DNA of 32,000 nt from Candidatus Electrothrix sp. GW3-4 (GTDB lineage Bacteria > Desulfobacterota > Desulfobulbia > Desulfobulbales > Desulfobulbaceae). The stretch covers positions 4,230,001 to 4,262,000 of the forward strand of contig NZ_CP147990.1 in NCBI RefSeq assembly GCF_037902255.1, read 5' to 3'. Below, in pieces: positions 2,208 through 31,295 of this stretch (the first letter of the stretch is position 1; the number at the start of each line of letters is the position of its first letter). Below the pieces are notes generated by a model. It saw only the letters and a list, made by a program, of their open reading frames with translations, did not search any database and had not been told where the DNA came from. Made by a program: the position numbers and the translations under genes.

Positions 2208-2237
2208 AGAAATTTTTACGTCTTATTTTCTTTTCTC

Positions 2238-2284
2238 TTTTTCACCACCTGGTGAACATCACCGAGGCATCATATTCCTTTGGG
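2238..2284. repeat. 47-bp repeat 'A' copy 1, containing the perfect 16-bp palindrome TTCACCA-CC-TGGTGAA (2241-2256)
   Basis: tttttcaccacctggtgaacatcaccgaggcatcatattcctttggg matches 4626-4672 with 4 mismatches in 47, in the same orientation. It lies 3 bp after the CNNM stop and 30 bp before the 2207 start codon. Confidence 0.8.
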
Positions 2285-3417: not shown

Positions 3418-3649
3418 ATTTTCAATGCCTCTTTTGTGAGAACGTATTAATTTCTCTTTTGCTTTTTCAGTATATCAACAAGTATACGTTAATATATTGG
3501 AAAGTTAATCAGTTATCAATAATACAATTGATAAACAAAAAATACTCACAAGACAAGGATAAACTCACCGTTACAGTGAAAGGATGTACCAACTCAGGTA
3601 TGTAATTGCTGTATCAGCAGGGCGAGGCAAATTCCGGTGAGGAACCAGA

Positions 3650-3695
3650 GAGAGAGGAGCTTAAGCTGTTTTAATCACAACAGCTCAAGCGGTGA
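3650..3695 (-). repeat. Repeat 'B' copy 1: 12-bp-stem hairpin (arms 3659-3670 / 3679-3690) followed on the minus strand by CCUCUCUC
   Basis: Minus strand reads gcttgagctgtt-gtgattaa-aacagcttaagc. The only non-Watson-Crick pair is G-U on the minus strand (A-C on plus). It matches 4501-4547 at about 83% and lies 45 nt downstream of the DUF3047 stop. Confidence 0.7.
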
Positions 3696-3740
3696 AAAAT
3701 TGAAATTTTCCATGATGTTGATAGTATTGTAACGACAAAT

Positions 3741-4403
3741 CTACTCAGAGCTAAAAGAAATATCATCGTAGTAGGACTCCGCTACCAACCCGCTATTATC
3801 GGTATCGGTCATGACGGCAATAGCATCTATATAACGATAGGCTTCTATATTGTCTGCCTTATTTCCTTTATCTCCAAAATATTTAATCATATCTTCGTAT
3901 ACATTGCGTTTTTCGTAGTACCATTTCTCTGTACTTGAGTCCTTACCTCGAACTGACACCATTTTAACGCTTGAGCCAGCATACGCATTATTCCAAATTT
4001 TCCCCTGAGCTTGTGAGCCAGACCAAACATAATTGAGAGCTTTGGTTTTTAAACCCATGAAGCCCTTTTCAATAACAACATAAATTCGAGCGGCATAATC
4101 ATCACCATCTTTAGTACGCTCATCTAACCCAGGGAGCGTTTTGGAAACTCGCCAACTCCAACTCATATAAGGCGTTTTAAGCAGATCAATTCGTTTTTTA
4201 AGAACCAAACCTGATGCACTACCGTTACTCAACGCTTTCAATACTGGCTTGCCTTCGAGCAACATCAACTCATAAGAAGTTTCTCCTGAAAATATCTGTT
4301 TCTTCCATGCCTTAATCCCATCTGTGCCAAATGAAGTCAAATCAGCATTTGCATTGGAGTACAAACAGCACAAAGTGAGAGCCAATAATGGATATATTTT
4401 CAT
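3741..4403 (-). CDS. DUF3047-like secreted protein
   Basis: 220 aa with a signal peptide (MKIYPLLALTLCCLYSNANA). Motifs W..Q.F.GET.Y, YMSWSWRV and DDYAARIYVV are typical of DUF3047 as I recall the family. Confidence 0.75.
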   Translation of the reverse strand: MKIYPLLALTLCCLYSNANADLTSFGTDGIKAWKKQIFSGETSYELMLLEGKPVLKALSNGSASGLVLKKRIDLLKTPYMSWSWRVSKTLPGLDERTKDGDDYAARIYVVIEKGFMGLKTKALNYVWSGSQAQGKIWNNAYAGSSVKMVSVRGKDSSTEKWYYEKRNVYEDMIKYFGDKGNKADNIEAYRYIDAIAVMTDTDNSGLVAESYYDDISFSSE

Positions 4404-4500
4404 GAGTCCACAGTTCCTACGCTTTTATTTTGTTGCATATAACAGGATATTAAACAGGAAAACATGGAAAGCAAGGGAGAGAAGAAGGTTTGCCATCTGC

Positions 4501-4547
4501 CGGAGAGGGGCTTGAGCTATTTTAAACCACAACAGCTCAAGCAGTGA
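4501..4547 (-). repeat. Repeat 'B' copy 2: hairpin (arms 4510-4521 / 4531-4542) followed on the minus strand by CCCUCUCC
   Basis: Minus strand reads gcttgagctgtt-gtggtttaa-aatagctcaagc. The single non-Watson-Crick pair is again G-U on the minus strand only, at a different stem position than in copy 1. Confidence 0.7.
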
Positions 4548-4625
4548 GAGAAGCCAGAGTGTCAGCGTGGTTATCGCAAGGCGTTTGTTCGATTTGATTG
4601 TTTGAATCATTGCTCCGTGCTTGTT

Positions 4626-4672
4626 TTTTTCACCACCTGATGAACATCACCGAGGCATCATGTTCTATTGGG
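4626..4672. repeat. 47-bp repeat 'A' copy 2 (palindrome variant TTCACCA-CC-TGATGAA, 4629-4644)
   Basis: tttttcaccacctgatgaacatcaccgaggcatcatgttctattggg is a direct repeat of 2238-2284. It lies 70 bp downstream of the stop of the 4743..5015 gene. Confidence 0.8.
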
Positions 4673-4742
4673 ATTATTCACTTCACAGTGATTTAATATA
4701 ACGGGCTGTTATGCAACGTGGTCTCAGGGGAGGCGAGAGAGC

Positions 4743-5015
4743 TTAATCGCGAGGATATAAACCTTCATTGTTGCGTTCTGGAATGGGAATATTATTTTCT
4801 TTTAAGTGAGATAAGAGTGTTGTTTCAAAATCTGGATGCCAACCATCTCGATTACTATCATAGCATGATTGGCATACATCAAGCTTATACCGAGGTATAT
4901 GCTTTCCATTGTAAAAATGACGTCCCATTTGATATTTTGTACCGCATATTGTACAGGTGCATATGAATTTAAATTCACCTGGATTTTTCCCCATCTTTAG
5001 ATTGTAAGTGGACAT
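4743..5015 (-). CDS. Small zinc-ribbon-like hypothetical protein
   Basis: 90 aa with two Cys pairs (CTCTIC ... CQSC). AT-rich. No family recognised. Confidence 0.5.
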   Translation of the reverse strand: MSTYNLKMGKNPGEFKFICTCTICGTKYQMGRHFYNGKHIPRYKLDVCQSCYDSNRDGWHPDFETTLLSHLKENNIPIPERNNEGLYPRD

Positions 5016-5038
5016 TTAAGTTATCTCTTTGACCTCTA

Positions 5039-5488
5039 TTAAATTTTTCCTAAAAAATATGTTACTGTAGAAGCAAATATAGCAGAAAAAATTGCAATTA
5101 AAAAAGTGAATCGTTTCTCAAATTTTTTGCTTCTATCTTCATTTAAATATAAGTATCCTTTGCCAGTCAGGGAATACAAATGATCACTCAATTTTTCTTT
5201 ACAGCTCCAGGTCACACCTTTGTATGTTGCTTTATAATCACCACTTGATGTGGCAAATAGTTTCCATGCAAGTACCTGCAATTTAAGTGAAGTATATTCT
5301 GGATTTTTATCCGGCTCATCTTTTTTTACTAATGAGTCTTCAACTAATCCTTGAGTTATAAGAGAGGCAAAAGGGTAAAAATCTCTATGATCACCGTATA
5401 TTTTCGGTAACAAAGAAGAAATAACTGAAAGTTTCACTTCCCCTTCTTTTTCTATTTTTTTCAAAATTTTTAATGAAAGATCAATCAT
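5039..5488 (-). CDS. Hypothetical protein with a C-terminal transmembrane helix
   Basis: The track ORF starts at TTG 5491. ATG at 5488, preceded by GAGGA, is the more likely start. The C-terminus FTFLIAIFSAIFASTVTYFLG is a TM helix. AT-rich. Confidence 0.5.
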   Translation of the reverse strand: MIDLSLKILKKIEKEGEVKLSVISSLLPKIYGDHRDFYPFASLITQGLVEDSLVKKDEPDKNPEYTSLKLQVLAWKLFATSSGDYKATYKGVTWSCKEKLSDHLYSLTGKGYLYLNEDRSKKFEKRFTFLIAIFSAIFASTVTYFLGKI

Positions 5489-5557
5489 CAAGTCCTCGAG
5501 GCAGTTTTTATAACCAACCTACCAACAGAAAGAAACGCCCCGTTGGCAGGTTATAAT

Positions 5558-5767
5558 ACCACATTCAACGCTTTCAACGAGATATTTCAAGCGTAAAATA
5601 TCCCATTCGATGCTTACAACGTGACGTTTGATGTTTAAAACGAGGCATTCGAAGCTTCATATGAGGCATTTGAAGCTTAAAACGAGGCATTCAAAGCTTC
5701 ATATGAGGCGTTTGAAGTTTAAAACGTGGCATTCAAAGCTTCATATGAGGCATTTCATCTCGGCAAC
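5558..5767. repeat. Array 1: ten strictly phased 21-bp tandem units, with a core of three 42-bp repeats at 5642-5767
   Basis: Units start at 5558, 5579, 5600, 5621, 5642, 5663, 5684, 5705, 5726 and 5747. The core is GAGGCATT(C/T)(G/A)AAGCTT with alternating spacers CATAT and AAAAC. There are no indels across 210 bp. Confidence 0.9.
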
Positions 5768-5825
5768 AGGGGAAGAAAAAGAAGAAATGGGAGAGAGGAA
5801 CTATATAATATAGTTAAGAAAAAGA

Positions 5826-5924
5826 TCAAAGCAGCTTCCCGTTAATCTCCCCGGCCAACTCCTCCGGCGTTTTCCCCTCTGTATCCAAGACCAGATCCGA
5901 ACCAACCCGATAGAGCGGCTCCCG
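5826..5924 (-). pseudogene. Displaced duplicate of the aroK 3' end (last ~33 codons plus stop); left direct repeat of the inserted cassette
   Basis: 5838-5924 matches 7683-7769 with 4 mismatches in 87. It translates in frame to REPLYRVGSDLVLDTEGKTPEELAGEINGKLL*, against aroK's REPLYRAGSDLVLDTEGKTPEELAGEINGRL*. There is no upstream kinase domain. Confidence 0.85.
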
Positions 5925-5943
5925 CTTCGCCACAGCAGGGGGT

Positions 5944-6495
5944 TTACAGCAGATGACGTATTCGAGTGAATTCTTCACAAGCCGCAACCAGCGAGTCAGG
6001 TGGTGATTCAAGCTCAATATTTTTTCTGCACGTATCCGCAAGGCTGTCGATAAAGGGGTGAGCATCTTTTCGTTCCGAGAGAGCACCATATTTGTTTTTA
6101 TAGATATTTTTCTCCTCCTCATTAATAAGCTCCCCTGCAAGGTACGCTATCCATGTTTCAATATGCCACTTGGGTATAATGTAGGCTATCGGCTCTGCTT
6201 CGTCTCTCGGTGGCAAAAGTTTTGCTGCCAACTCAGTCCTGACCTGCTCAACAGAGAACTCATCAGCATCCTGAATCACCAACAGGATCGTCGCGGCATG
6301 TCGAGATCGGCACGCTTTGGCTTCTTCAGAAAATTTTTCCAGCACAAATTTTTTACCTGATCCCTTACCACCTGGATAAGGAACCACTCTGATTGTACGA
6401 GGTTTTACCCCCCACCCCTTTTTCAGGAAACGGGTTACAAATATTTCATGGGCCCTGTCTTCACAGAGAATAATAATTTGCGATGCCTTACTCAT
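5944..6495 (-). CDS. Small TOPRIM-like protein (DUF4276/DUF4435/RloB-type), partner of the upstream ATPase
   Basis: 183 aa. IIILCEDRAHEIFV (beta-strand plus acidic residue), LLVIQDADEF (DxD) and IPKWHIETWI follow the order of TOPRIM-like catalytic elements. Its start overlaps the ATPase stop by 8 nt (ATGAGTAA). Confidence 0.65.
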   Translation of the reverse strand: MSKASQIIILCEDRAHEIFVTRFLKKGWGVKPRTIRVVPYPGGKGSGKKFVLEKFSEEAKACRSRHAATILLVIQDADEFSVEQVRTELAAKLLPPRDEAEPIAYIIPKWHIETWIAYLAGELINEEEKNIYKNKYGALSERKDAHPFIDSLADTCRKNIELESPPDSLVAACEEFTRIRHLL

Positions 6496-7597
6496 TTTCC
6501 CATCCCCGAGCCATTACCTCAGCCGGAGGCAGATCGGCTACTTGAGGAAACTGATCAACAACAACATGCGCCCCTTCCTGACGAGAGAACCAAAGCTCTG
6601 TTCCCCGTGCCATCTTGTTGATAATTTCAGGATGATGAGAGGTGATGAGAGCCTGTTTGTCGTGTTCATCACAGATATCGTTAAGATTTTCAAGCCAAGG
6701 CTGAATTTCGCGTATAGAAATAAAGTTGTCCGGCTCATCAATCAGCACGGTCGAAAAAATTCCGGCCCGCAGAGCCTCCAAAATCGTGTAGAGAACAATC
6801 AACTGTCGCTGCCCGTCAGAAATATTTGAGAAGGAGAACTCATAGTCCTTACCTTCAATGCGGAATGTTGCTGTTAATTTTCGTGATTCACCCGCCTCTC
6901 TAAGGCTCAACTGTTCAAACCCAGGGAGAACGTCCTCTAAAAGTTCTTTTGCCTTATAACTGACAGCGGGTTCTTCCTGCAGGAGATGGCGATACCACTG
7001 GGAAAAATTTTCAGTATGTTTAGAAAGGTTACGCGACTCAGCAACAGCTGCGTCCTGTACAAGTAAGGGAACAGGATGAATCAGCAGAATCTTCTCCAAT
7101 TCCTCTCTAAACATGATTAATGGTTTATTATCATCACGTTGAGCAACTGTAGGGATGACTGATCGTTCCCAATTCGCCGGAAAAACAGCACCCTCTTCCG
7201 GTTTTTCTGTCTTCCAGTTGATACGATAGAGATGTGCCTCCTGCCCCTCGAACAAGAAAAAGGGAGAACCGTTCCAGATGAGTTGTTCTCGTTTAATACG
7301 CTGCTTCTCTTCATGATCGGCATATTCAATCGTCAAGCTGTACTTATATACCTCATTGTTTACTTTCAGAGAAAATGCTATGCTCTGCTCACGCCTTGTA
7401 TTCCAGGTTGTCAGGCTGTTTCTGTTGAAGATATCGTTCACATGCTCGCCTCGCATCAATCGTTGAACGCTGCGTAATGCATCCAGCACAGAAGTTTTGC
7501 CCGACCCATTCTCTCCAAGCCAGAGTTGAAATTCCCCTGGTTTGATTCGAAAATTTGTCAAAGAACGAAAGTTGTCAATATAGATTTCTGTTATCAT
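6488..7597 (-). CDS. SMC/ABC-type ATPase (AAA_15/AAA_21-like)
   Basis: I place the start at MITEIYIDNFRSL (ATG 7597). The 170 extra N-terminal residues in the track ORF read into the GC-rich aroK region. Motifs: Walker A GENGSGKTS, signature-like SDGQRQL, Walker B VLIDEPDNF, H-loop ITSHHP. About 369 aa. Confidence 0.85.
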   Translation of the reverse strand: MITEIYIDNFRSLTNFRIKPGEFQLWLGENGSGKTSVLDALRSVQRLMRGEHVNDIFNRNSLTTWNTRREQSIAFSLKVNNEVYKYSLTIEYADHEEKQRIKREQLIWNGSPFFLFEGQEAHLYRINWKTEKPEEGAVFPANWERSVIPTVAQRDDNKPLIMFREELEKILLIHPVPLLVQDAAVAESRNLSKHTENFSQWYRHLLQEEPAVSYKAKELLEDVLPGFEQLSLREAGESRKLTATFRIEGKDYEFSFSNISDGQRQLIVLYTILEALRAGIFSTVLIDEPDNFISIREIQPWLENLNDICDEHDKQALITSHHPEIINKMARGTELWFSRQEGAHVVVDQFPQVADLPPAEVMARGWENE

Positions 7598-7673
7598 AGA
7601 TATATTTACTTTGTTATTTTCTGATGTCAGGTTGATTAAGTTCGTGCCGAACCTCTGTAGAACAGCATCTTTT

Positions 7674-8351
7674 TCAAAGCCGCCCGTTAATCTCCCCGGC
7701 CAACTCCTCCGGCGTTTTCCCCTCTGTATCCAGAACCAGATCCGAACCCGCCCGATAGAGCGGCTCCCGTTCCTCCAGGATGGCAGAGACCTCCTGAGCC
7801 GGGTTTTCCCAACCTTCCTGCTTGTCCAAGGCAGGGCGTTGCTCGGCCGTCTTCTGATCCAAGGCCAGCCGGGCCAGGGTCGTGGCGAGATCCGTGCGCA
7901 GCCAGACCACAAAGGCATCTCGGCGCAGCTCTTCCCACGCATCTTGGTGCAGAATAGCTCCACCGCCGGTGGCGATGATGGTTTCCTGCCAGGAAGACAG
8001 TTCCTTGAGCAGGGTTCGCTCCTGTCCACGAAAATATGGCCATCCCTGTTGGCTGACGGCATCTGCAATAGAGCAGCCCATACGCTGGTAGAGCTCCTGA
8101 TCCGTGTCAAGAAAGCGAAAACCGGTTAAGCGGGCCAGGGCCTGACCCACAGCGGTCTTGCCCGTGGCCCGAAACCCGGTCAGGACGATGCGCTCAGGAA
8201 GTCCTTGCTGCTCCCCTGCGCCCTTCTTTCTCGCCAACCCATCCCCTGACCTGCTTTTTTTTGTTGCCCTACCTTGCACCTTATTCACAAACTCCTTATG
8301 TTTTGAGGTTGATTTTTCCCTTTTCCTCCTGCCGCAGGTACTGTATGACAT
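7674..8351 (-). CDS. aroK: Shikimate kinase
   Basis: IVLTGFRATGKTAVGQALA (P-loop), FLDTDQEL and ATGGGAIL. The start is uncertain. ATG 8351 gives a 45-aa Lys/Arg-rich extension. In-frame TTG 8237, with AGGGGA upstream, gives a typical ~188-aa protein. The last ~33 codons (7683-7769) form the right direct repeat of the cassette. Confidence 0.8.
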   Translation of the reverse strand: MSYSTCGRRKREKSTSKHKEFVNKVQGRATKKSRSGDGLARKKGAGEQQGLPERIVLTGFRATGKTAVGQALARLTGFRFLDTDQELYQRMGCSIADAVSQQGWPYFRGQERTLLKELSSWQETIIATGGGAILHQDAWEELRRDAFVVWLRTDLATTLARLALDQKTAEQRPALDKQEGWENPAQEVSAILEEREPLYRAGSDLVLDTEGKTPEELAGEINGRL

Positions 8352-8454
8352 ACGGCATAAATTTTCATCCCTCAATGATATCCCATGAAAAAAACTATGA
8401 CCTTGCTCCCTGATCGAAAAGCGGGGGCAAACAAGACCGCTGCGGAGAAGTTCC

Positions 8455-9783
8455 TTGGTTGCGGATAATCTTTTTGCCCTGATTGGCCAGCTCCATTTCC
8501 CTTCCCTGATCATCGGCATGGGCCTGACCGCCCTGGCTATGCTGTCTCTGTTGTTGCTGGTCTGGAACCGACTCCAGCGCGAGAACCTCCTGCTTTCCCT
8601 GCAACTGGAGCAGACCGGCGAGGATGCCCGCCGCTTTGAACAGGAGGCGGAAGAACTGCGGCGGGAGCGGGAGAGCCTGCGGCAGCAGAAGGAAGAGGCG
8701 GAGCGGGATAATATCGGCCTGGAGGCCTTTCTTCACGAGACCCGGGCCATTGCCGGTGAGCGCCAGCAATTCCTCGCCCAAAGCAAGCAGCAGCTGGCAG
8801 AGGATTTTTACAATCTCTCCCGCAAGGTCATGGCCGAGCAGGGGAGGGTCCTGCAGGAGCAGCATGCCGGGGGACTGGAACATCTCCTCTCACCGGTGCG
8901 CAATCAGTTGGATGCCTTTCGTCAGAAGGTGGAGGATGTCTACGAGCGGGAATCCCGCGATCGCCTCTCTCTGAGCAAGGAGGTGGAACATCTCAGGCTG
9001 TTGAACGAGCGGCTCAGTCAGGAGGCGGTGGAGTTGACCCGGGCCTTGCAGGGGACCAATAAATTGCAGGGGCAATGGGGGGAGATGGTCCTGGAGCGGC
9101 TCCTGGAGGAATCGGGTCTCCGACCGGGCAGCGAGTTTGCCACCCAGGTCTCGCTGCGGGATGAGCAGGGGCGTCTCAAACAGCCGGACGTGATCGTTTA
9201 TCTTCCTGAAAAAAGGGCCGTGATCATTGATGCCAAGATGTCCCTGAACAGCTATGTGGCAGCAGGTCGGAGCGATGATGAACAGGAGCGGGAGCAGCAT
9301 CTGGGCAATCATATCAATTCCATTCAACAGCATGTCAAGGGCCTGAGCAAAAAGCAGTACCACGATCTCCCGGAGCTCACCACCCTGGATTTTGTCCTCC
9401 TCTTTATCCCGGTGGAAGGGGCCTTTCAGGCAGCGGTGAGCAGGAAACCGGAGCTGCTCACCCAGGCCCTTCGGCGGCGGGTGATGATTGCCTCGCCCTC
9501 AACCCTGCTGGCCATCCTCCGCACCATCCATCATATCTGGCGGATGGATGAGCAGAACCGCAACAGCCTGATCATTGCCCAGGAGGCAGGCAAGCTCTAT
9601 GATAAGTTTGTTGGTTTCACCGAGGCCTTTAGCGAGGTCGGAACCCGCCTGGATCAGGCCCACCAGAGCTGGCAATTAGCAGAAAAACGTTTGAGCACAG
9701 GCAAAGGTAATCTCATAGACCGGGCTGAGGCCCTGCGACAGCTCGGGGTGCAGCCGAGCAAGGATCTGGCAAAGGAACGATGA
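8455..9783 (+). CDS. rmuC: DNA recombination protein RmuC
   Basis: 442 aa: N-terminal TM helix, long coiled coil, then an RmuC nuclease-like core (PDVIVYLPEKRAVIIDAKMSL, LLFIPVEGAF). The start is TTG 8455 or ATG 8518. Confidence 0.9.
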   Translation: MVADNLFALIGQLHFPSLIIGMGLTALAMLSLLLLVWNRLQRENLLLSLQLEQTGEDARRFEQEAEELRRERESLRQQKEEAERDNIGLEAFLHETRAIAGERQQFLAQSKQQLAEDFYNLSRKVMAEQGRVLQEQHAGGLEHLLSPVRNQLDAFRQKVEDVYERESRDRLSLSKEVEHLRLLNERLSQEAVELTRALQGTNKLQGQWGEMVLERLLEESGLRPGSEFATQVSLRDEQGRLKQPDVIVYLPEKRAVIIDAKMSLNSYVAAGRSDDEQEREQHLGNHINSIQQHVKGLSKKQYHDLPELTTLDFVLLFIPVEGAFQAAVSRKPELLTQALRRRVMIASPSTLLAILRTIHHIWRMDEQNRNSLIIAQEAGKLYDKFVGFTEAFSEVGTRLDQAHQSWQLAEKRLSTGKGNLIDRAEALRQLGVQPSKDLAKER

Positions 9784-11144
9784 TGCAAAAGAAAGGAATG
9801 ACCGCCCGTGGCCTGGCCCTGGAGACCCTGGTGCAATGGACAGGCAGCGGCAAGCCGGTGCAAGGCTTTATCAATAGGATTATTCATGACTCGGGCCTGA
9901 AGAATGAGGAGCGTCAGCTGGCCGTGATGCTGGTGCTGGCCGTGTTGCGGGAGCAGGAATATCTTGATCTGCTTATCAGCAGCTTTTCCAAGACCAAGTT
10001 GCGCAAAATGAAGCCGCTGACCTTGGCTGCCCTGCGGATTGGGGTGGTGCAGATCTGCCGCCTGGAGCGTATCCCGGATTCAGCTGCGGTGAATGAGACG
10101 GTCAAGGCCCTGAAAAAGATGCGTCAGCCTGGCTGGCTCTGTAGTTTTGTCAACGGGACCCTGCGTAATATCGCACGAAGCAAGGAGAGCCTGCCAAGCC
10201 CGGAAGAGGCAGGCCCAGGAGGGACGCCGGTGCTCAATCATCCGGTCTGGCTGACCGAGCGTTGGCAGGAGCATTTTGGTCGGGAGCAGATGCAGGCGAT
10301 CTGCCGGGTGAATAATACGGAACCGGCACTCTGTCTTCAGGTCAATCAGGTGCGAACAGATCAAGAGACCCTGGCTGAGCAATTTTCAGAGCAGGGGATA
10401 CGAACCGAGCCGGGCAGCTTTGCTCTGGACAGTCTGATCCTCCAGGAGCAGCGGGGGGCAGTGACCGACTTACCCGGTTTTACTGAGGGCCTCTTTCAGG
10501 TCCAGGATCAGGCAGCGCGCCTGGCCTGTGAGCTTTTGAGACCCTTCAAGGAGCAAGGGCGGTACCTGGACGGCTGTGCAGGTTTAGGTGGCAAGACCTG
10601 CATCCTTGCCGCGCTGCTTCCTCAGGATGCCTCGCTTGTTGCGGTGGAGCCGGATCAGCGGCGCTCCCGCCTCTTGCAGGAGAATCTTCAGCGCCAGGGC
10701 CTGAGCGAGAAGGTAGAAACCGTGCAGCAGGGGTTGCAGGGCTTTGCTGCTGACGATGATCGCCTTTTTGACGGCATCTTTATTGATGCCCCCTGTTCCG
10801 GCACCGGGATCATTCGCAAGCATCCTGACATCCGCTGGAACCGGCAGCCTGAAGACCTTGTCAGCTCTCAGAAAACCCAGCTTGCATTATTGCAAACAGC
10901 GGCTACCTTGATTAAACCTGGTGGGGTACTCGTCTATGCCACCTGCTCCCTGGAGCCGGAGGAAAATCAGCAGGTGGTGGAGCAGTTTCTCACTACCAAC
11001 CCTGCCTTTGCACTGACTGATTGCCGGGATTTTCTGCCTGCCTCAGCTGCTTCCCTGGTGGATGCGCAGGGCTTTTTTGCACCGCTGCCCACAGAGGAGA
11101 TTGAGGGGTTCTTTGCAGCACGGTTAGTGCGGAGTGCATTATAA
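9780..11144 (+). CDS. rsmB: 16S rRNA (cytosine967-C5)-methyltransferase
   Basis: 454 aa: NusB-like N-terminal domain followed by FIDAPCSGTGIIRKHPDIRW and YATCSLEPEENQ (RsmB/Sun m5C methyltransferase motifs). ATG overlaps the rmuC stop. Confidence 0.9.
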   Translation: MMQKKGMTARGLALETLVQWTGSGKPVQGFINRIIHDSGLKNEERQLAVMLVLAVLREQEYLDLLISSFSKTKLRKMKPLTLAALRIGVVQICRLERIPDSAAVNETVKALKKMRQPGWLCSFVNGTLRNIARSKESLPSPEEAGPGGTPVLNHPVWLTERWQEHFGREQMQAICRVNNTEPALCLQVNQVRTDQETLAEQFSEQGIRTEPGSFALDSLILQEQRGAVTDLPGFTEGLFQVQDQAARLACELLRPFKEQGRYLDGCAGLGGKTCILAALLPQDASLVAVEPDQRRSRLLQENLQRQGLSEKVETVQQGLQGFAADDDRLFDGIFIDAPCSGTGIIRKHPDIRWNRQPEDLVSSQKTQLALLQTAATLIKPGGVLVYATCSLEPEENQQVVEQFLTTNPAFALTDCRDFLPASAASLVDAQGFFAPLPTEEIEGFFAARLVRSAL

Positions 11145-12018: not shown

Positions 12019-12606
12019 ATGGCAGAAATAAAATCCACTATGGAGTTAGTTATGGAACGTGCCGCCCGCATGGGCAAGGCAAGCAATGAAGAGCTCCAAC
12101 AGGAAGAAATACAAAAAAACGGAATGAAGCTGGCCGCTGATTTTCTCGACGGAAAGGTCGAGAGCCTGATGACCACCCTAACCGAGCAGCCTGAAGACCA
12201 TCAGGTAACCATTCGTAATGGTATGGTCGAAACCCTGCTGCGCAATATTTTCCTCCATCGCGATGAACTGGGCAAAGAGCGAACGGAAAAGGCCACTCAG
12301 GGGATCCGGGAGGTCAGTGGTGATGCTGGCGAGGTAGGAAACATCTGTGCAGAGATGCAGAATGTCCTTGGGCAGTATAATCAGCACCGGGAACAGCTTC
12401 GCCAGCAGCTGGAGGACCAGATCCGCATGCAGTACGAGCAGATGATGGCCCAACAGGCCGGTATGCAGGGTGGTGGTGCGCAGATTGAACATGCTCTGGA
12501 GGCCAAGGTCAATGAGGAGCTGGCACGAATGGAGGCAGAGCTGACAGACCAGTACAATCAGGCCTTAGAGCAGTATAAAGAGGCTCTCAGAGAACGCTTG
12601 GGTTGA
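12019..12606 (+). CDS. Hypothetical coiled-coil, Gln/Glu-rich protein
   Basis: 195-aa ORF with normal composition. No motif recognised. Confidence 0.6.
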   Translation: MAEIKSTMELVMERAARMGKASNEELQQEEIQKNGMKLAADFLDGKVESLMTTLTEQPEDHQVTIRNGMVETLLRNIFLHRDELGKERTEKATQGIREVSGDAGEVGNICAEMQNVLGQYNQHREQLRQQLEDQIRMQYEQMMAQQAGMQGGGAQIEHALEAKVNEELARMEAELTDQYNQALEQYKEALRERLG

Positions 12607-21990: not shown

Positions 21991-22524
21991 TCACCATTGA
22001 CAAACCACCTCAATCAATCCCGGCTTCCCGGCATAATTGACCGCACTGGAATACCGCCAATGCTCGGCAGCCTCAACATATCCTCGTTTCACCGGATTCT
22101 GGTGGATATACTCCAGTTTCTGCCGCATTACAGCCTCGTTTTCAATGTATTGCGGGTGAAAACCCTCTTCCCATACCTGATATTCGGATTCCCGCTTATG
22201 GTGTCGTTTGAAAAGAGCGAACAGATGCAGCAGTCGCTCCGCTTTGACCTCATGCAGATGGTCGATAATCTTTCGGGCTGTATATGATTTAAAGCGTTGC
22301 ATATCTTTGCTCAGATTCGGTGACTGTGCTATCAGGTGAAGATGGTTTTCCAGAATAATATAACCGTACAGCCTGAAATTGTGTTTTTCCTGCAAATATT
22401 GCCAGCTATCAAGGACGATCTGTACTGTTTCCGGTCGAGTGAAGACCGGGAGCCAGTTGTTCACAGTTGAAGTCATGAAATACGGAGCGTCAGGCGAGAA
22501 GATATGGTATCGGCTGCGCGGCAT
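21991..22524 (-). CDS. REP-associated tyrosine transposase (RAYT; IS200/IS605-like Y1 HUH transposase)
   Basis: I place the start at MPRSRYH (ATG 22524) with AGGAGG 5 nt upstream. The track's extra 56 residues are a translation of the REP element. HUH motif ENHLHLI and catalytic Tyr region LEYIHQNPVKRGYV. REP-like elements flank it on both sides. Confidence 0.85.
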   Translation of the reverse strand: MPRSRYHIFSPDAPYFMTSTVNNWLPVFTRPETVQIVLDSWQYLQEKHNFRLYGYIILENHLHLIAQSPNLSKDMQRFKSYTARKIIDHLHEVKAERLLHLFALFKRHHKRESEYQVWEEGFHPQYIENEAVMRQKLEYIHQNPVKRGYVEAAEHWRYSSAVNYAGKPGLIEVVCQW

Positions 22525-22545
22525 TTCATCCTCCTGTATTTCTTT

Positions 22546-22587
22546 TTCTGGTTTCTGGTTCCCAAGCTCCAGCTTGGGCACCAGCAA
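22546..22587 (+). repeat. Short REP-like element (left arm of hairpin 1 fused to right arm of hairpin 3)
   Basis: ttctggtttctggttcccaagctccagcttgggcaccagcaa. The central ~65 bp of the composite element are missing. Confidence 0.85.
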
Positions 22588-22612
22588 AAATGTGCTCCGC
22601 TTAAAACCTTCG

Positions 22613-23008
22613 TTAGTCCTTGTAATACTGCTTAAATTCATCTGAAGGATCACGGTCTGAGTAGATATAAACGGAGTTCCCGATAGGATCAATTACAGAA
22701 AACCCTCTGTCCCCCCAAGGGTGGTCTTCCAATGGCATTGCTGCTTGCAGACCTGCTTCTGTCAATCTGGAATGTTCTGCATCAACATCATCAACCTTGA
22801 AATTGAGCATTACGCCCGCACCTCCAAATACTGGCATATTTTCTTGTGGTTGCATAAATTGAATCGTTGGACCGCCTTCACCGATGCGCAGATTGACATA
22901 CCAGCCACAATCAAAAATAGCTTTTGCCGAGAAATGCTGTTCATAGAATTCTCGACACGCATCTACATCTTTTGTACAGAAACATGTTGATAGCTCATTT
23001 GTCTTCAT
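22613..23008 (-). CDS. VOC/glyoxalase/bleomycin-resistance family protein
   Basis: 131 aa. Typical VOC pattern (DVDACREFYEQHF..., FKVDDVDAEHSRL, PWGDRGFSVIDPIGN). Confidence 0.8.
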   Translation of the reverse strand: MKTNELSTCFCTKDVDACREFYEQHFSAKAIFDCGWYVNLRIGEGGPTIQFMQPQENMPVFGGAGVMLNFKVDDVDAEHSRLTEAGLQAAMPLEDHPWGDRGFSVIDPIGNSVYIYSDRDPSDEFKQYYKD

Positions 23009-29633: not shown

Positions 29634-31295
29634 TAGAGCATCCTCAAAAAGCTAACCTCTCATACAGGCAATACTGCAAGACTTGCCTTGGCATTTGTTC
29701 AAAGAACGCCAAAAATCGAGCGATAATATGATTCAGCTGGCTGCGTAAAAGTAAAAACCGTGAAAGATATAAATTTTCAAGCTGTTCCTGCAACTTCCTG
29801 AGCAGAACCATCAGATTCATGACCAGGAAGATACAGTTGATCCATGCTTCAGAGGTTCTCTGAAGTTTTGCCCGGATGTAGTTGAGTCGGTAGCCGTTTT
29901 TTCCTTGGCCAAATTTCCCCTCAATGGGGATCCGTTCTCGACTATCCCGAATTCGTTGTGCTTTCAGTTCCCGAAGACGTTCTTTGTTTTCTTCTGTCTC
30001 TTTCGGGGACCTGCCCAATCGTTTACCACCAAATCGAATACCTTTCTCTTTGAGATATTTACGGTTTTCTCTTGTTCCGTAAATCTGATCAGCCAGTACG
30101 ACTGCCGGATAGTAACCATTCCGGCGCTTGTAACTCTCCACTTGCTCACGCAAATCCGTGCCTTCGTTGAAGGCATCCCAACCAATATGATCGACAAAAG
30201 CCAAACCATCGACCATGCTCACGCTGAGTTTGGCACCGAACTCCACATTTTTACCTGCTTTCCCACGAACTATCGGTCGTACATGAGGTTGGGCAATGGA
30301 AACAATTCGGTCATCGCAGCGTCGTTTTCGTTTTTTATACATCTCATCCTGCTGGCGATACACATGCTGAATGATCCAATACTGTCGTTGTTGCTGATGG
30401 GGAAGTGGAAAAGGTGCCGTTTCAACATTGTCAAGCAACTCATCAATATATCGCAGATTTCTTCGGATGTACTGTAATTGCTGCCGAAGTCCGCGCCGCA
30501 GAATTTTTCGGCCTGGTTTCTTTTTCTTAGCCAGATTCAGGTAGTTTTTACGGGCAAGTCTCCGATATGTTCTGGGCTTTTTGGCGTAGTCACTCTGTTT
30601 GTACAGATCATCAATCAGCTGCTCGGAAATCTCACGAGCTTCGTTGAGTAAACTCAGATCAGTCGGGTAACGAATCGCTTGCTCAGCAACCGTTGCATCG
30701 ACAAGCATTTTTCCCTTATTTTCAACGGGCTCTTCCTGACTCTCATCCTCTTTTTCGTCTTCATTTGCCGTACTTTTCTTTGAGAGAGCAAGTTTTTCCA
30801 AAATCACTTCTTCAAAAGCAGAAAAAACATCTTTTCCCATGCGCTTGCGAATTTCAACAAACAGGCTGGGAGCTAGAGGTCGCTTGTCTTGAAAACAAGA
30901 AAATCCAACAAAATATTGAAGATAGGGATTCTCCTGGATCTGAAGTACGGTTTCTTCATCACTGAGCGTCAACTTGTGCTTAATGATTAACGCGCCGATC
31001 ACCAATCTGGCATCTTTGGCTGGTCGTCCTTGATGCGGGTCCAAAGTTCGATAATATCTGATGGCGAACTCATCCCACGGAATAACTTTATGCCATTTGA
31101 TCCATCTGTTTTCAGGGTTCAGTTTACCTCCAAACGGAAGGCTGAATCCTTCAAGTGTAAGCTGTCTGTCACTGGTGTACCTGATCATGTGCATGCCTTA
31201 TGAGGGGGTGAACGTCAAAAACATGCATATTTTACAATATTTTTACAACTTTTTCATTTAAAATCAGTGCACTGAGGCTTTTTAAGGGCAATCTA
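29634..31295 (-). mobile_element. IS5/IS1182-type insertion sequence (boundaries approximate)
   Basis: Single transposase ORF. Candidate imperfect terminal inverted repeats are TAGAgcatCCTcAAAAAGC (29634-29652) and GCTTTTTaAGGgcaaTCTA (31277-31295), matching 14 of 19. No clear target-site duplication is visible. Confidence 0.45.
29644..31194 (-). CDS. IS5/IS1182-family DDE transposase
   Basis: 516 aa. N-terminal InsH/DUF772-like region (LEGFSLPFGGKLNPENRWIKW...DEFA...GRPAKDARLVIGALIIKH) and a C-terminal DDE region (VDATV..., DHIGWDAFNEG..., LADQIYGTRENR). Confidence 0.85.
   Translation of the reverse strand: MHMIRYTSDRQLTLEGFSLPFGGKLNPENRWIKWHKVIPWDEFAIRYYRTLDPHQGRPAKDARLVIGALIIKHKLTLSDEETVLQIQENPYLQYFVGFSCFQDKRPLAPSLFVEIRKRMGKDVFSAFEEVILEKLALSKKSTANEDEKEDESQEEPVENKGKMLVDATVAEQAIRYPTDLSLLNEAREISEQLIDDLYKQSDYAKKPRTYRRLARKNYLNLAKKKKPGRKILRRGLRQQLQYIRRNLRYIDELLDNVETAPFPLPHQQQRQYWIIQHVYRQQDEMYKKRKRRCDDRIVSIAQPHVRPIVRGKAGKNVEFGAKLSVSMVDGLAFVDHIGWDAFNEGTDLREQVESYKRRNGYYPAVVLADQIYGTRENRKYLKEKGIRFGGKRLGRSPKETEENKERLRELKAQRIRDSRERIPIEGKFGQGKNGYRLNYIRAKLQRTSEAWINCIFLVMNLMVLLRKLQEQLENLYLSRFLLLRSQLNHIIARFLAFFEQMPRQVLQYCLYERLAF

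What the first reader, a model, noticed from the sequence alone, without database searches (positions are those of the whole stretch)
5826..7769. Two-gene cassette inserted into the 3' end of aroK, bracketed by an 87-bp direct repeat that duplicates the gene's last ~33 codons
**Repeat.** 5838-5924 and 7683-7769 are direct repeats with 4 mismatches in 87, and both are preceded by tcaaagc. The right copy is the genuine end of aroK. The left copy, 1.75 kb downstream, still reads in frame (REPLYRVGSDLVLDTEGKTPEELAGEINGKLL*).

**Substitution pattern.** Two of the four nucleotide differences are synonymous (gtc ttg versus gtt ctg, both Val-Leu). The other two make a conservative Val/Ala change. This is what is expected if one copy was evolving as a functional aroK 3' end in another lineage, that is, a surrogate gene end carried on an incoming element (attP-like), as in tRNA- or tmRNA-targeting islands.

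**Cargo and boundaries.** The DNA between the repeats is AT-rich against GC-rich aroK. It holds only the ATPase and TOPRIM-like genes packed edge to edge, with the cargo stop 19 bp from the left repeat. No integrase or recombinase lies between the repeats, so the cassette may be mobilised in trans, may be a decayed island, or may have entered by single-crossover (Campbell-type) recombination.
Basis: partly seen in the sequence, partly recalled or inferred. Interest (0 to 1): 0.72.

Follow-up and report, generated by a model that had tools for sequence, protein, structure and literature searches.

The report
Old defence cassette inserted behind aroK
A two-gene candidate anti-phage module was inserted long ago at the end of the shikimate kinase gene of marine cable bacteria, duplicating the gene's last ~100-180 bases; it is a real but old, recombinase-less insertion that some relatives lack.

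Summary
In detail: 5838-5924 and 7683-7769 differ at 4 of 87 bases, and the homology runs over about 100 nt through both stop codons. The window is Ca. Electrothrix sp. GW3-4.

The cargo is an intact ABC ATPase plus a TOPRIM-like protein of the HEC-01 type. In Desulfobulbus alkaliphilus the same module sits inside an Hma defence system.

The insertion is neither recent nor private. The same aroK-cassette-aroK' layout occurs in E. scaldis, in an S24-like lineage and in a JGI contig.

Relatives with empty sites exist:
- aroK runs straight into its native neighbour in L034 and L038.
- aroK runs straight into CNNM in L101 and L102.

The Electrothrix cassettes form one clade. Their divergence tracks that of the hosts, except for one recent exchange between GW3-4 and scaldis (ATPase dS 0.03 against 0.45 in core genes).

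The two repeat copies stay alike through gene conversion, so their substitution pattern does not show a foreign surrogate end.

No integrase, terminal inverted repeats, phage copy or plasmid copy was found.

Best reading: one old insertion with target duplication in a variable hotspot, later lost, eroded or exchanged by homologous recombination. How the duplication first arose is unresolved. Moderate interest.

The parts
7674..8279 (-). aroK (shikimate kinase). The GTG start at 8279 is inferred; the stop is at 7674-7676.
   Evidence: Pfam SKI 1.3e-37. Orthologues of 201-207 aa lie in the same rsmB-rmuC-aroK synteny.
7674..7777 (-). Right repeat copy: the last ~33 codons and stop of the functional aroK. 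Its tail (..GRL*) is shared by the cassette-bearing genomes.
7598..7673 (-). Spacer and 5' leader of the cassette. It is homologous to the leader of the Hma-embedded copies (AATCAACC..CATCA..AAA).
6488..7597 (-). ABC-type ATPase, 369 aa. Walker A (GENGSGKT), signature (SDGQRQ) and Walker B (LIDEPD) are all intact.
   Evidence: Pfam AAA_21 4e-17, AAA_15 and SMC_N. PADLOC HEC-01A 1.4e-27. Translation.
5944..6495 (-). 183-aa TOPRIM-like partner. The motifs CED, DAD and PKWHIETW are invariant. It overlaps the ATPase gene by 8 nt.
   Evidence: Alignment A1. AF2 pLDDT 91. Family members hit HEC-01B (14 of 42, best 1e-6; the window copy only E 0.04) and weakly DUF3226/DUF4276.
5826..5932 (-). Left repeat copy: the displaced aroK 3' fragment, with a native-type tail (..GKLL*) and the native downstream flank.
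   Evidence: In L033 the tail and flank of the left copy match the empty sites L034/L038.
5625..5755 (.). 21/42-nt tandem repeat array just downstream of the left copy. It is conserved in E. scaldis and L100.
3602..5624 (-). Rest of the variable stretch that is absent from L101/L102: two orphan ORFs (5039-5491 and 4743-5015), a CNNM-3'/97-aa-gene fragment (4425-4672) and DUF3047 (3741-4403).

Best explanation
**What it is.** This is an old, chromosomally inherited insertion of a stand-alone HEC-01-type module at the 3' end of aroK in marine cable bacteria (Ca. Electrothrix). The module is an ABC ATPase plus a TOPRIM-like putative nuclease, a candidate anti-phage system.

**Origin.** The module descends from copies embedded between the DUF1156 methylase and the DUF499 ATPase of Hma defence systems. 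It was transplanted almost exactly from the methylase stop codon to the small gene's stop codon.

**What the insertion did.** It duplicated the last 100-184 nt of aroK.
- The copy still attached to aroK received a new 2-3-codon tail and stop.
- The displaced copy kept the native tail and the native downstream flank.

**What happened afterwards.**
1. The two copies have been kept 85-95% alike by gene conversion.
2. Recombination between them, or larger deletions, removed the cassette in some lineages. This part is inferred.
3. The small gene eroded in others.
4. Cassette alleles have been swapped between species by ordinary homologous recombination.

**Shown and not shown.** No dedicated recombinase is involved today. 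The mechanism of the first duplication is inferred only. The likeliest routes are Campbell-type or homology-facilitated integration of a fragment that carried a relative's aroK end, or repair of a staggered break. As for function, an ATPase sensor controlling a TOPRIM nuclease, as in PARIS, OLD or Gabija, is inferred by analogy and was not tested.
For: **Shared architecture.** The same layout and the same aroK-side junction are found in:
- E. scaldis (repeat 10506-10611 versus 12348-12453);
- L033;
- S24/L100, which retains the left-copy tail and the tandem-repeat flank after a deletion.

**Empty and occupied pair.** L033 31-658 matches L038 3047-3683, and L033 2425-3551 matches L038 3500-4653. 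So 184 nt are duplicated around a 1767-nt insert. L034 and L101/L102 are also empty.

**One clade, tracking the hosts.** The Electrothrix ATPases form a single clade. Cassette dS scales with host dS at about 1.6-fold:

| Pair | ATPase dS | Core-gene dS |
|---|---|---|
| GW3-4 vs L100 | 1.03 | 0.6 |
| GW3-4 vs Rat3 | 1.21 | 0.63 |
| GW3-4 vs L033 (core taken from L034/L038) | 1.69 | 0.7-1.07 |
| GW3-4 vs scaldis | 0.03 | 0.44-0.50 |

The GW3-4/scaldis pair is the exception, with 98-100% nucleotide identity over 7550-6350.

**Gene conversion.**
- In the 87-nt core, 0 sites support orthology and 4 support exchange between copies.
- Orthology-type sites occur only at the repeat edges.
- Left copies are 91% identical between the two species, while the adjacent non-coding flank is 74% identical.

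**Hma origin.** In D. alkaliphilus the order is DUF1156-ATPase-small-DUF499. Homology to L033 starts 5 nt before the methylase stop and ends 11 nt before the small gene's stop. Other loci keep remnants of the methylase 3' end.

**No mobility machinery.**
- No integrase in the window.
- No terminal inverted repeats.
- No copy in viral contigs, phages or plasmids.
Against: - Presence and absence are patchy in all three sampled clades. A single gain therefore needs at least 2-3 losses.
- The L101/L102 'empty' state lacks about 4 kb (window 7682 to 3601). Simple recombination between the repeats does not produce it.
- The left copy starts at different points in different lineages (184 nt in L033, about 100 nt in GW3-4 and scaldis). 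In both cases it abuts the small gene's stop codon, which would also fit independent integrations.
- The proximal part of the L033 left copy lacks a 12-nt insertion that is typical of its own clade, and there it resembles the GW3-4 clade. That is compatible with a donor-derived segment.
- In an unrelated contig (L055) a 221-nt duplication of another gene's end flanks the same kind of cassette. Its differences are biased to third codon positions (7/2/14, omega 0.35), as expected if one copy came from a related donor.
- Cassette dS exceeds core dS throughout.
- The event that created the duplication is not explained by any direct evidence.
Confidence: 0.6

Rival explanations
1. The cassette is a decayed or cis-mobilisable integrative element (CIME-like). 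Its repeats are attL and attR, made by a tyrosine or serine integrase acting on an attP that mimics the aroK 3' end. It is mobilised in trans by an integrase encoded elsewhere.
For: - Direct repeats that include the end of the target gene, and a new stop supplied on the cassette side.
- Clean empty sites.
- The same aroK-side junction in all occupied genomes.
- The cassette is horizontally mobile.
Against: - No integrase in the 32-kb window or in any of about 10 related aroK loci.
- The aroK repeat is not found in viral contigs, and the cassette is not found in phages or plasmids.
- Repeat length differs between lineages (100 versus 184 nt).
- In about 25 other contexts the cassette has no flanking repeats.
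- The cassette phylogeny follows the hosts.
Confidence: 0.12
2. The cassette spreads repeatedly among Electrothrix lineages without an integrase. Recombination between the repeats releases a 1.85-kb circle, or a linear aroK'-cassette fragment. Once it reaches a relative, this integrates into an empty aroK by RecA-dependent Campbell-type or homology-facilitated recombination and recreates the duplication. On this view, occupied sites in different clades are separate integrations.
For: - Occupied and empty states coexist within each clade.
- L033 shows the mosaic this model predicts:
  - left copy with a GW3-4-like proximal part and a host-like tail;
  - right copy with a host-like proximal part and a cassette-type tail.
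- Recent inter-species exchange is demonstrated for GW3-4 and scaldis.
- The codon-position bias in L055.
Against: - Cassette divergence is never smaller than host divergence, except in the GW3-4/scaldis pair.
- In that pair the near-identical tract lies inside the cassette and excludes the repeats. That is allelic replacement, not new integration.
- The Electrothrix cassettes are monophyletic and roughly congruent with the hosts.
- The model does not explain the first duplication.
Confidence: 0.2
3. The ATPase/TOPRIM pair is itself a selfish mobile unit. It inserts at gene ends and generates long target duplications of variable length.
For: - Flanking duplications occur in independent contexts: aroK (100-184 nt), an OMP-like gene in L055 (221 nt), L079 (19 nt), and possibly L046 (23 nt, low complexity).
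- Unit boundaries fall within 0-6 nt of the small gene's stop in several contexts.
- No other mobility gene is present.
Against: - About 25 of about 30 testable loci have no flanking repeat.
- L046 and L070 share the unit at 95% identity with no duplication at the homology boundaries.
- The Hma-embedded copies have none.
- The sharp boundaries can simply mark where homology between resident cassettes ends.
- There are no terminal repeats.
Confidence: 0.06
4. A local tandem duplication followed by decay, with no insertion-linked duplication.
For: A neighbouring repeat pair (2233-2284 versus 4621-4672) looks like the remnant of a tandem duplication of CNNM-97aa-DUF3047.
Against: The tail of the left copy is contiguous with the native downstream flank, exactly as in the empty sites. 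A tandem duplication of aroK'-cassette would place a second cassette there, and it would have to be deleted with base precision.
Confidence: 0.03

Closest known systems
HEC-01 (Hma-embedded candidate 01: ABC ATPase + TOPRIM protein; Payne et al., bioRxiv 10.1101/2024.01.29.577857)
   Same: - The ATPase matches HEC-01A models (1.4e-27).
- The small protein's family matches HEC-01B models and has the E...DxD pattern.
- A 72-80% identical copy in D. alkaliphilus is embedded between DUF1156 and DUF499 of an Hma system.
   Different: - Here the pair stands alone behind a housekeeping gene.
- The window's small protein is at the edge of detection (E 0.04).
- The paper found no phage protection for HEC-01 in E. 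coli, so a defence function is unproven.
PARIS (AriA ABC ATPase + AriB TOPRIM), OLD-family nucleases and Gabija GajA
   Same: An ABC ATPase is partnered with a TOPRIM-type nuclease. AriA and GajA models give weaker hits to the ATPase (3e-21 and 6e-14).
   Different: - The small protein is not DUF4435/AriB (1 of 42 family members at E 0.003).
- At 183 aa it is about half the size of AriB.
- OLD and GajA are single polypeptides.
Genomic islands and cis-mobilisable elements (CIMEs) integrated in the 3' end of protein genes, such as ICESt1/CIME at fda or islands at tRNA/tmRNA genes (from general knowledge; ICEberg 2.0, PMC6323972, lists CIMEs)
   Same: The cargo is flanked by direct repeats that contain the end of the target gene. 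The target gene stays intact. Empty sites exist in relatives. A CIME carries no recombinase of its own.
   Different: - No cognate integrase-bearing element or attP was found.
- The repeats are long (100-184 nt), differ in length between lineages and evolve by gene conversion.
- The insertion is old and inherited vertically.
Campbell-type or homology-facilitated illegitimate integration, and IS26-style translocatable units (from general knowledge)
   Same: A circle or fragment carrying one copy of a chromosomal segment integrates by recombination in that segment. The segment ends up duplicated around the cargo. The reverse reaction deletes the cargo.
   Different: - There is no IS and no transposase.
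- The process is inferred from structure only. No intermediate has been observed.

Membership tests
Integrase-dependent integrative element / CIME | Cargo bracketed by direct repeats (attL/attR) that include the end of the target gene | tested here: met
   5826-5932 versus 7674-7777. The same holds in L032 and L033.
Integrase-dependent integrative element / CIME | A cognate tyrosine or serine recombinase, in the element or in a related element that uses the same att site | tested here: not met
   None in the 32-kb window or in about 10 related aroK loci. The aroK repeat is absent from viral contigs. Whole genomes could not be searched, so an integrase encoded far away is not excluded.
Integrase-dependent integrative element / CIME | Empty attB sites in relatives | tested here: met
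   L034/L038, and L101/L102.
Integrase-dependent integrative element / CIME | Excision to a circular form | not testable with these tools
   Needs raw reads or PCR.
HEC-01 (ABC ATPase + TOPRIM, Hma-embedded) | ATPase of the HEC-01A type with intact Walker A, Walker B and signature motifs | tested here: met
   PADLOC HEC-01A 1.4e-27. Motifs are visible in the translation.
HEC-01 (ABC ATPase + TOPRIM, Hma-embedded) | Adjacent TOPRIM-fold partner (HEC-01B) with acidic metal-binding residues | tested here: inconclusive
   - The window protein hits HEC-01B at E 0.04 only.
- 14 of 42 family members hit HEC-01B, down to 1e-6.
- E12 and D76-x-D78 are invariant.
- The AF2 model is confident (pLDDT 91), but Foldseek against PDB is not significant; the top hits are TOPRIM-bearing retron Eco2 and GajA at E 0.03-0.2.
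HEC-01 (ABC ATPase + TOPRIM, Hma-embedded) | Embedded within an Hma (helicase-methylase-ATPase) system | tested here: not met
   In the window the pair lies between aroK and an aroK fragment. Relatives are embedded: D. alkaliphilus L103 and L066/L077.
HEC-01 (ABC ATPase + TOPRIM, Hma-embedded) | Anti-phage activity | not testable with these tools
   The source paper saw no protection for HEC-01.
PARIS (AriA/AriB) | AriB-type DUF4435 TOPRIM partner of about 300 aa | tested here: not met
   The partner is 183 aa. It has no Pfam hit. AriB is hit by 1 of 42 family members at E 0.003.
Transposon / insertion sequence | Transposase gene, terminal inverted repeats and a fixed-length target duplication | tested here: not met
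   There is no transposase between the repeats and no terminal inverted repeats. Duplication length varies from 0 to 221 nt across contexts.

The most novel reading that the evidence does not exclude
HEC-01-type ATPase/TOPRIM pairs may be discrete, recombinase-less mobile modules. They would move between 'embedded' positions in Hma systems and the 3' ends of unrelated host genes. Insertion would use a mechanism that can duplicate tens to hundreds of bases of the target gene's end. That mechanism might be catalysed by the module's own nuclease and ATPase, or might rely on circles formed between the duplicated ends. The Electrothrix aroK locus would then be the first case with clean empty and occupied alleles in which to study how embedded defence genes travel.
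Probability: 0.1. Interest if true: 0.8.

Novelty: new variant of a known kind. Interest (0 to 1): 0.4.

Why it matters
How small defence modules that carry no mobility genes move between genomes and between 'embedded' slots is poorly understood. This locus offers four things for studying it:
- precisely defined module boundaries, running stop codon to stop codon relative to its Hma-embedded relatives;
- natural empty, occupied, eroded and recently exchanged alleles within one genus;
- a measurable case of gene conversion keeping a dead gene fragment alike to its living copy;
- a candidate anti-phage system in cable bacteria, whose phage biology is little known.

If only the mundane reading holds, it is a well-documented example of an old islet in a variable hotspot, and nothing more.

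Tried and rejected
**Ideas tested and rejected**
- **Second decayed kinase paralogue.** Only the last ~105 nt of aroK match near 5833-5938, and the small gene lies directly upstream. Rejected.
- **Assembly artefact.** The same duplication appears in two closed genomes and in independent metagenome contigs. Rejected.
- **Third repeat copy or tandem islands.** The window holds only two copies.
- **tRNA/tmRNA or known RNA at the site.** Rfam found nothing in 5300-8500 at E<=1. Promoter and terminator scans were at chance level. Twelve related loci have no tRNA next to the cassette.
- **Phage, satellite or plasmid carriage.** No match in viral contigs, INPHARED phages or PLSDB.
- **Literature.** A search for aroK as an integration site found nothing relevant.
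- **Tandem-duplication origin.** Rejected on junction logic.

**Leads weighed and downgraded**
- **L097 73-nt repeat.** It looks like a generic dispersed repeat and is not informative.
- **L046 23-nt repeat.** The sequence is A-rich and low in complexity, and it lies 157 and 223 nt outside the unit shared with L070. Treated as weak.

**Tools or searches that gave nothing**
- **Exact look-up of the ATPase.** My first look-up failed because I included one extra codon.
Full report
The gapless match is 100 nt at 91% (5833-5932 versus 7678-7777). With a 3-nt indel it continues through both stop codons. A 50-mer from the core occurs exactly twice in the window, against none in 100 shuffles.
- The right copy ends a bona fide shikimate kinase gene (SKI 1.3e-37).
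- The left copy still reads ...REPLYRVGSDLVLDTEGKTPEELAGEINGKLL*.
- Only two genes lie between them, overlapping by 8 nt.
- Cargo GC (0.447) equals the window average (0.463). The rsmB-rmuC-aroK block is the unusually GC-rich part.

**2. What the cargo is.**
- The 369-aa protein is an ABC-type ATPase (AAA_21, AAA_15, SMC_N). Its best defence-model hit is HEC-01A at 1.4e-27.
- The 183-aa partner has no Pfam hit of its own.
  - Its family of 114 homologues has invariant CED, DAD and PKWHIETW motifs.
  - It folds confidently into an alpha/beta domain (pLDDT 91).
  - Family members match HEC-01B models (14 of 42, down to 1e-6; the window copy E 0.04). Some weakly match DUF3226/DUF4276.
  - Foldseek against PDB gave nothing significant.
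- HEC-01 is described as an ABC ATPase plus TOPRIM pair embedded in Hma systems, with no protection seen in E. coli.
- In Desulfobulbus alkaliphilus a 72-80% identical pair sits exactly between the DUF1156 methylase and the DUF499 ATPase of an Hma system.
  - Homology to the Electrothrix cassette starts 5 nt before the methylase stop and ends at the small gene's end.
- Several metagenomic copies outside Hma still carry 12-45-codon remnants of the methylase 3' end and pieces of the DUF499 5' end.
- The aroK cassette is therefore a transplanted Hma-embedded module.

**3. Where else the architecture occurs.** The window is Ca. Electrothrix sp. GW3-4.

| Locus | State of the site |
|---|---|
| E. 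scaldis (L032) | Occupied: aroK-ATPase-small-aroK'. Repeat 85% over 106 nt, then the same 21-nt array, DUF3047, CNNM and RsgA |
| JGI contig L033 | Occupied, with a duplication of about 184 nt |
| S24-like L001/L100 | Occupied but eroded. A deletion removed two thirds of the small gene and most of the left copy; its tail and flank remain |
| Rat3 (L030) | Cassette truncated and separated from aroK by a rearrangement |
| L038 and L034 | Empty: aroK overlaps its convergent beta-helix neighbour |
| L101/L102 | Empty: aroK is followed directly by CNNM; window 7682-3601 is missing |
| Electronema aureum | aroK lies in a different synteny |

- L033 is the occupied version of the L038/L034 site: L038 3500-3683 is present twice, around a 1767-nt insert.
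- None of 60 metagenomic cassette loci is linked to aroK.

**4. Age and inheritance.** The Electrothrix ATPases form one clade. Synonymous divergence of the ATPase scales with that of flanking core genes, at about 1.6-fold:
- GW3-4 vs L100: 1.03 against 0.6.
- GW3-4 vs Rat3: 1.21 against 0.63.
- GW3-4 vs L033: 1.69 against 0.7-1.07, with core genes taken from L034/L038.
- L033 vs Rat3: 0.74, alongside 82-86% nucleotide identity in the shared beta-helix gene.

The exception is GW3-4 versus scaldis. Core dS is 0.44-0.50, but the ATPase is at 0.03 and the small gene at 0.11. Nucleotide identity is 98-100% from about 7550 to 6350 and from 6050 to 5950. That tract lies inside the cassette and excludes the repeats, which are 90% identical. 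It therefore looks like allelic replacement by homologous recombination.

**5. Why the copies are so alike.** If the duplication is as old as the cassette, a neutral left copy should be far more diverged than it is.
- Left copies of GW3-4 and scaldis are 91% identical in the core, while the adjacent flank is 74% identical.
- In the 87-nt core, no variable site groups right with right and left with left.
- Two sites group by genome, including a derived A shared by both GW3-4 copies.
- Two adjacent sites are swapped between genomes.
- Orthology-type sites are confined to the repeat edges.
- This is the pattern of gene conversion.
- Elsewhere the left copy decays: L->P and other replacements in scaldis, and a stop codon plus a 15-nt deletion in L033.
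- In L033 the attached copy itself carries a 4-nt deletion. This is either a frameshift or a sequencing error.

**6. Mechanism.**
- Shown: insertion with duplication of the target's end; existence of empty alleles; conversion between copies; inter-species exchange; erosion.
- Absent: integrase in the window or in related loci, terminal inverted repeats, phage or plasmid copies, and any RNA gene at the site.
- Inferred: empty sites of the L034/L038 type may be revertants made by recombination between the repeats, or they may never have been occupied. The data do not decide.
- The first duplication is unexplained. A donor fragment or circle carrying a relative's aroK end would fit the L033 mosaic.
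- It would also fit an independent case, L055. There, 221 nt of another gene's end flank the same kind of cassette, with third-position-biased differences.
- About 25 other contexts show no flanking repeat. L046 and L070 share the unit at 95% identity without duplication. Long duplications are therefore not a general property of the module.

**7. Verdict.** The finding is real, and the locus is a clean natural series of alleles. It is not a recent attP-type integration. It is best described as an old, recombinase-less transplant of an Hma-embedded HEC-01-type module into a variable hotspot behind aroK. Interest is moderate. The more exciting reading, self-contained mobility of such modules, remains possible but unlikely on present evidence.

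Noticed in passing
window 5625-5755; L032 12489-12824; L100 6008-6141: A 21-nt unit (42-nt super-period) forms a tandem array about 70 nt downstream of the left aroK copy. E. scaldis has about 16 copies, and the S24-like lineage also has the array. It is conserved across species, and its function is unknown. It looks like iterons or protein-binding sites.
   Followed up: partly
window 2233-2284 and 4621-4672; L032 13936-14017 and 16165-16247: A second direct repeat (52 nt, 88%) brackets a 61-aa ORF, DUF3047 and CNNM. The upstream copy duplicates the sequence just after the CNNM stop. The 61-aa ORF is the 5' part of a 97-aa membrane-protein gene that follows CNNM in scaldis and L101. The gene order suggests the remnant of a tandem duplication.
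   Followed up: partly
window 4743-5015 and 5039-5491: Two orphan ORFs (90 and 150 aa) have no Pfam, PADLOC or NCBIfam hit. E. scaldis lacks them and has a different 222-aa ORF at that position. This is another variable slot of the same hotspot.
   Followed up: partly
L055 6531-6751 and 8945-9165: In an unrelated metagenome contig, a distant copy of the same cassette is flanked by a 221-nt, 90% direct repeat of the 3' end of a 217-aa OMP-like gene. Both copies keep an open frame. Their differences fall 7/2/14 by codon position.
   Followed up: partly
L079 141-159 and 1817-1835: A 19-nt direct repeat (one mismatch) lies 25 nt before the ATPase start and 31 nt after the small gene's stop of a distant cassette. 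It contains the upstream gene's stop and the ribosome-binding site.
   Followed up: partly
L030 (Rat3) 9783-9947 and L037 10120-10230: The sequence downstream of aroK in L037 matches the sequence just upstream of the cassette in Rat3. In Rat3, aroK is replaced by the beta-helix gene region. This is an unresolved rearrangement whose breakpoint lies at the aroK/cassette junction.
   Followed up: partly
L033 ~513-560: The aroK copy attached to the gene in this contig has a 4-nt deletion, relative to L034/L038, in a GGCAGG-rich stretch. It would frameshift the last ~47 codons. It may be a sequencing error.
   Followed up: no
window 21991-22692 and 29644-31194: The window holds a REP-associated tyrosine transposase (NCBIfam 1e-31, above cut-off) and a DDE transposase (DDE_Tnp_1_2, DUF772). 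Both are far from the cassette.
   Followed up: no
window 8500-11000: The rsmB-rmuC-aroK block has GC 0.58-0.61 against a window mean of 0.46. The window is compositionally very heterogeneous.
   Followed up: no
L040, L041, L043, L048, L049 (upstream and downstream of the cassette): Cassette copies outside Hma systems keep remnants of the DUF1156 methylase 3' end, of varying length, upstream. Downstream they keep fragments of the DUF499 5' end. This marks their origin and their different cut points.
   Followed up: yes
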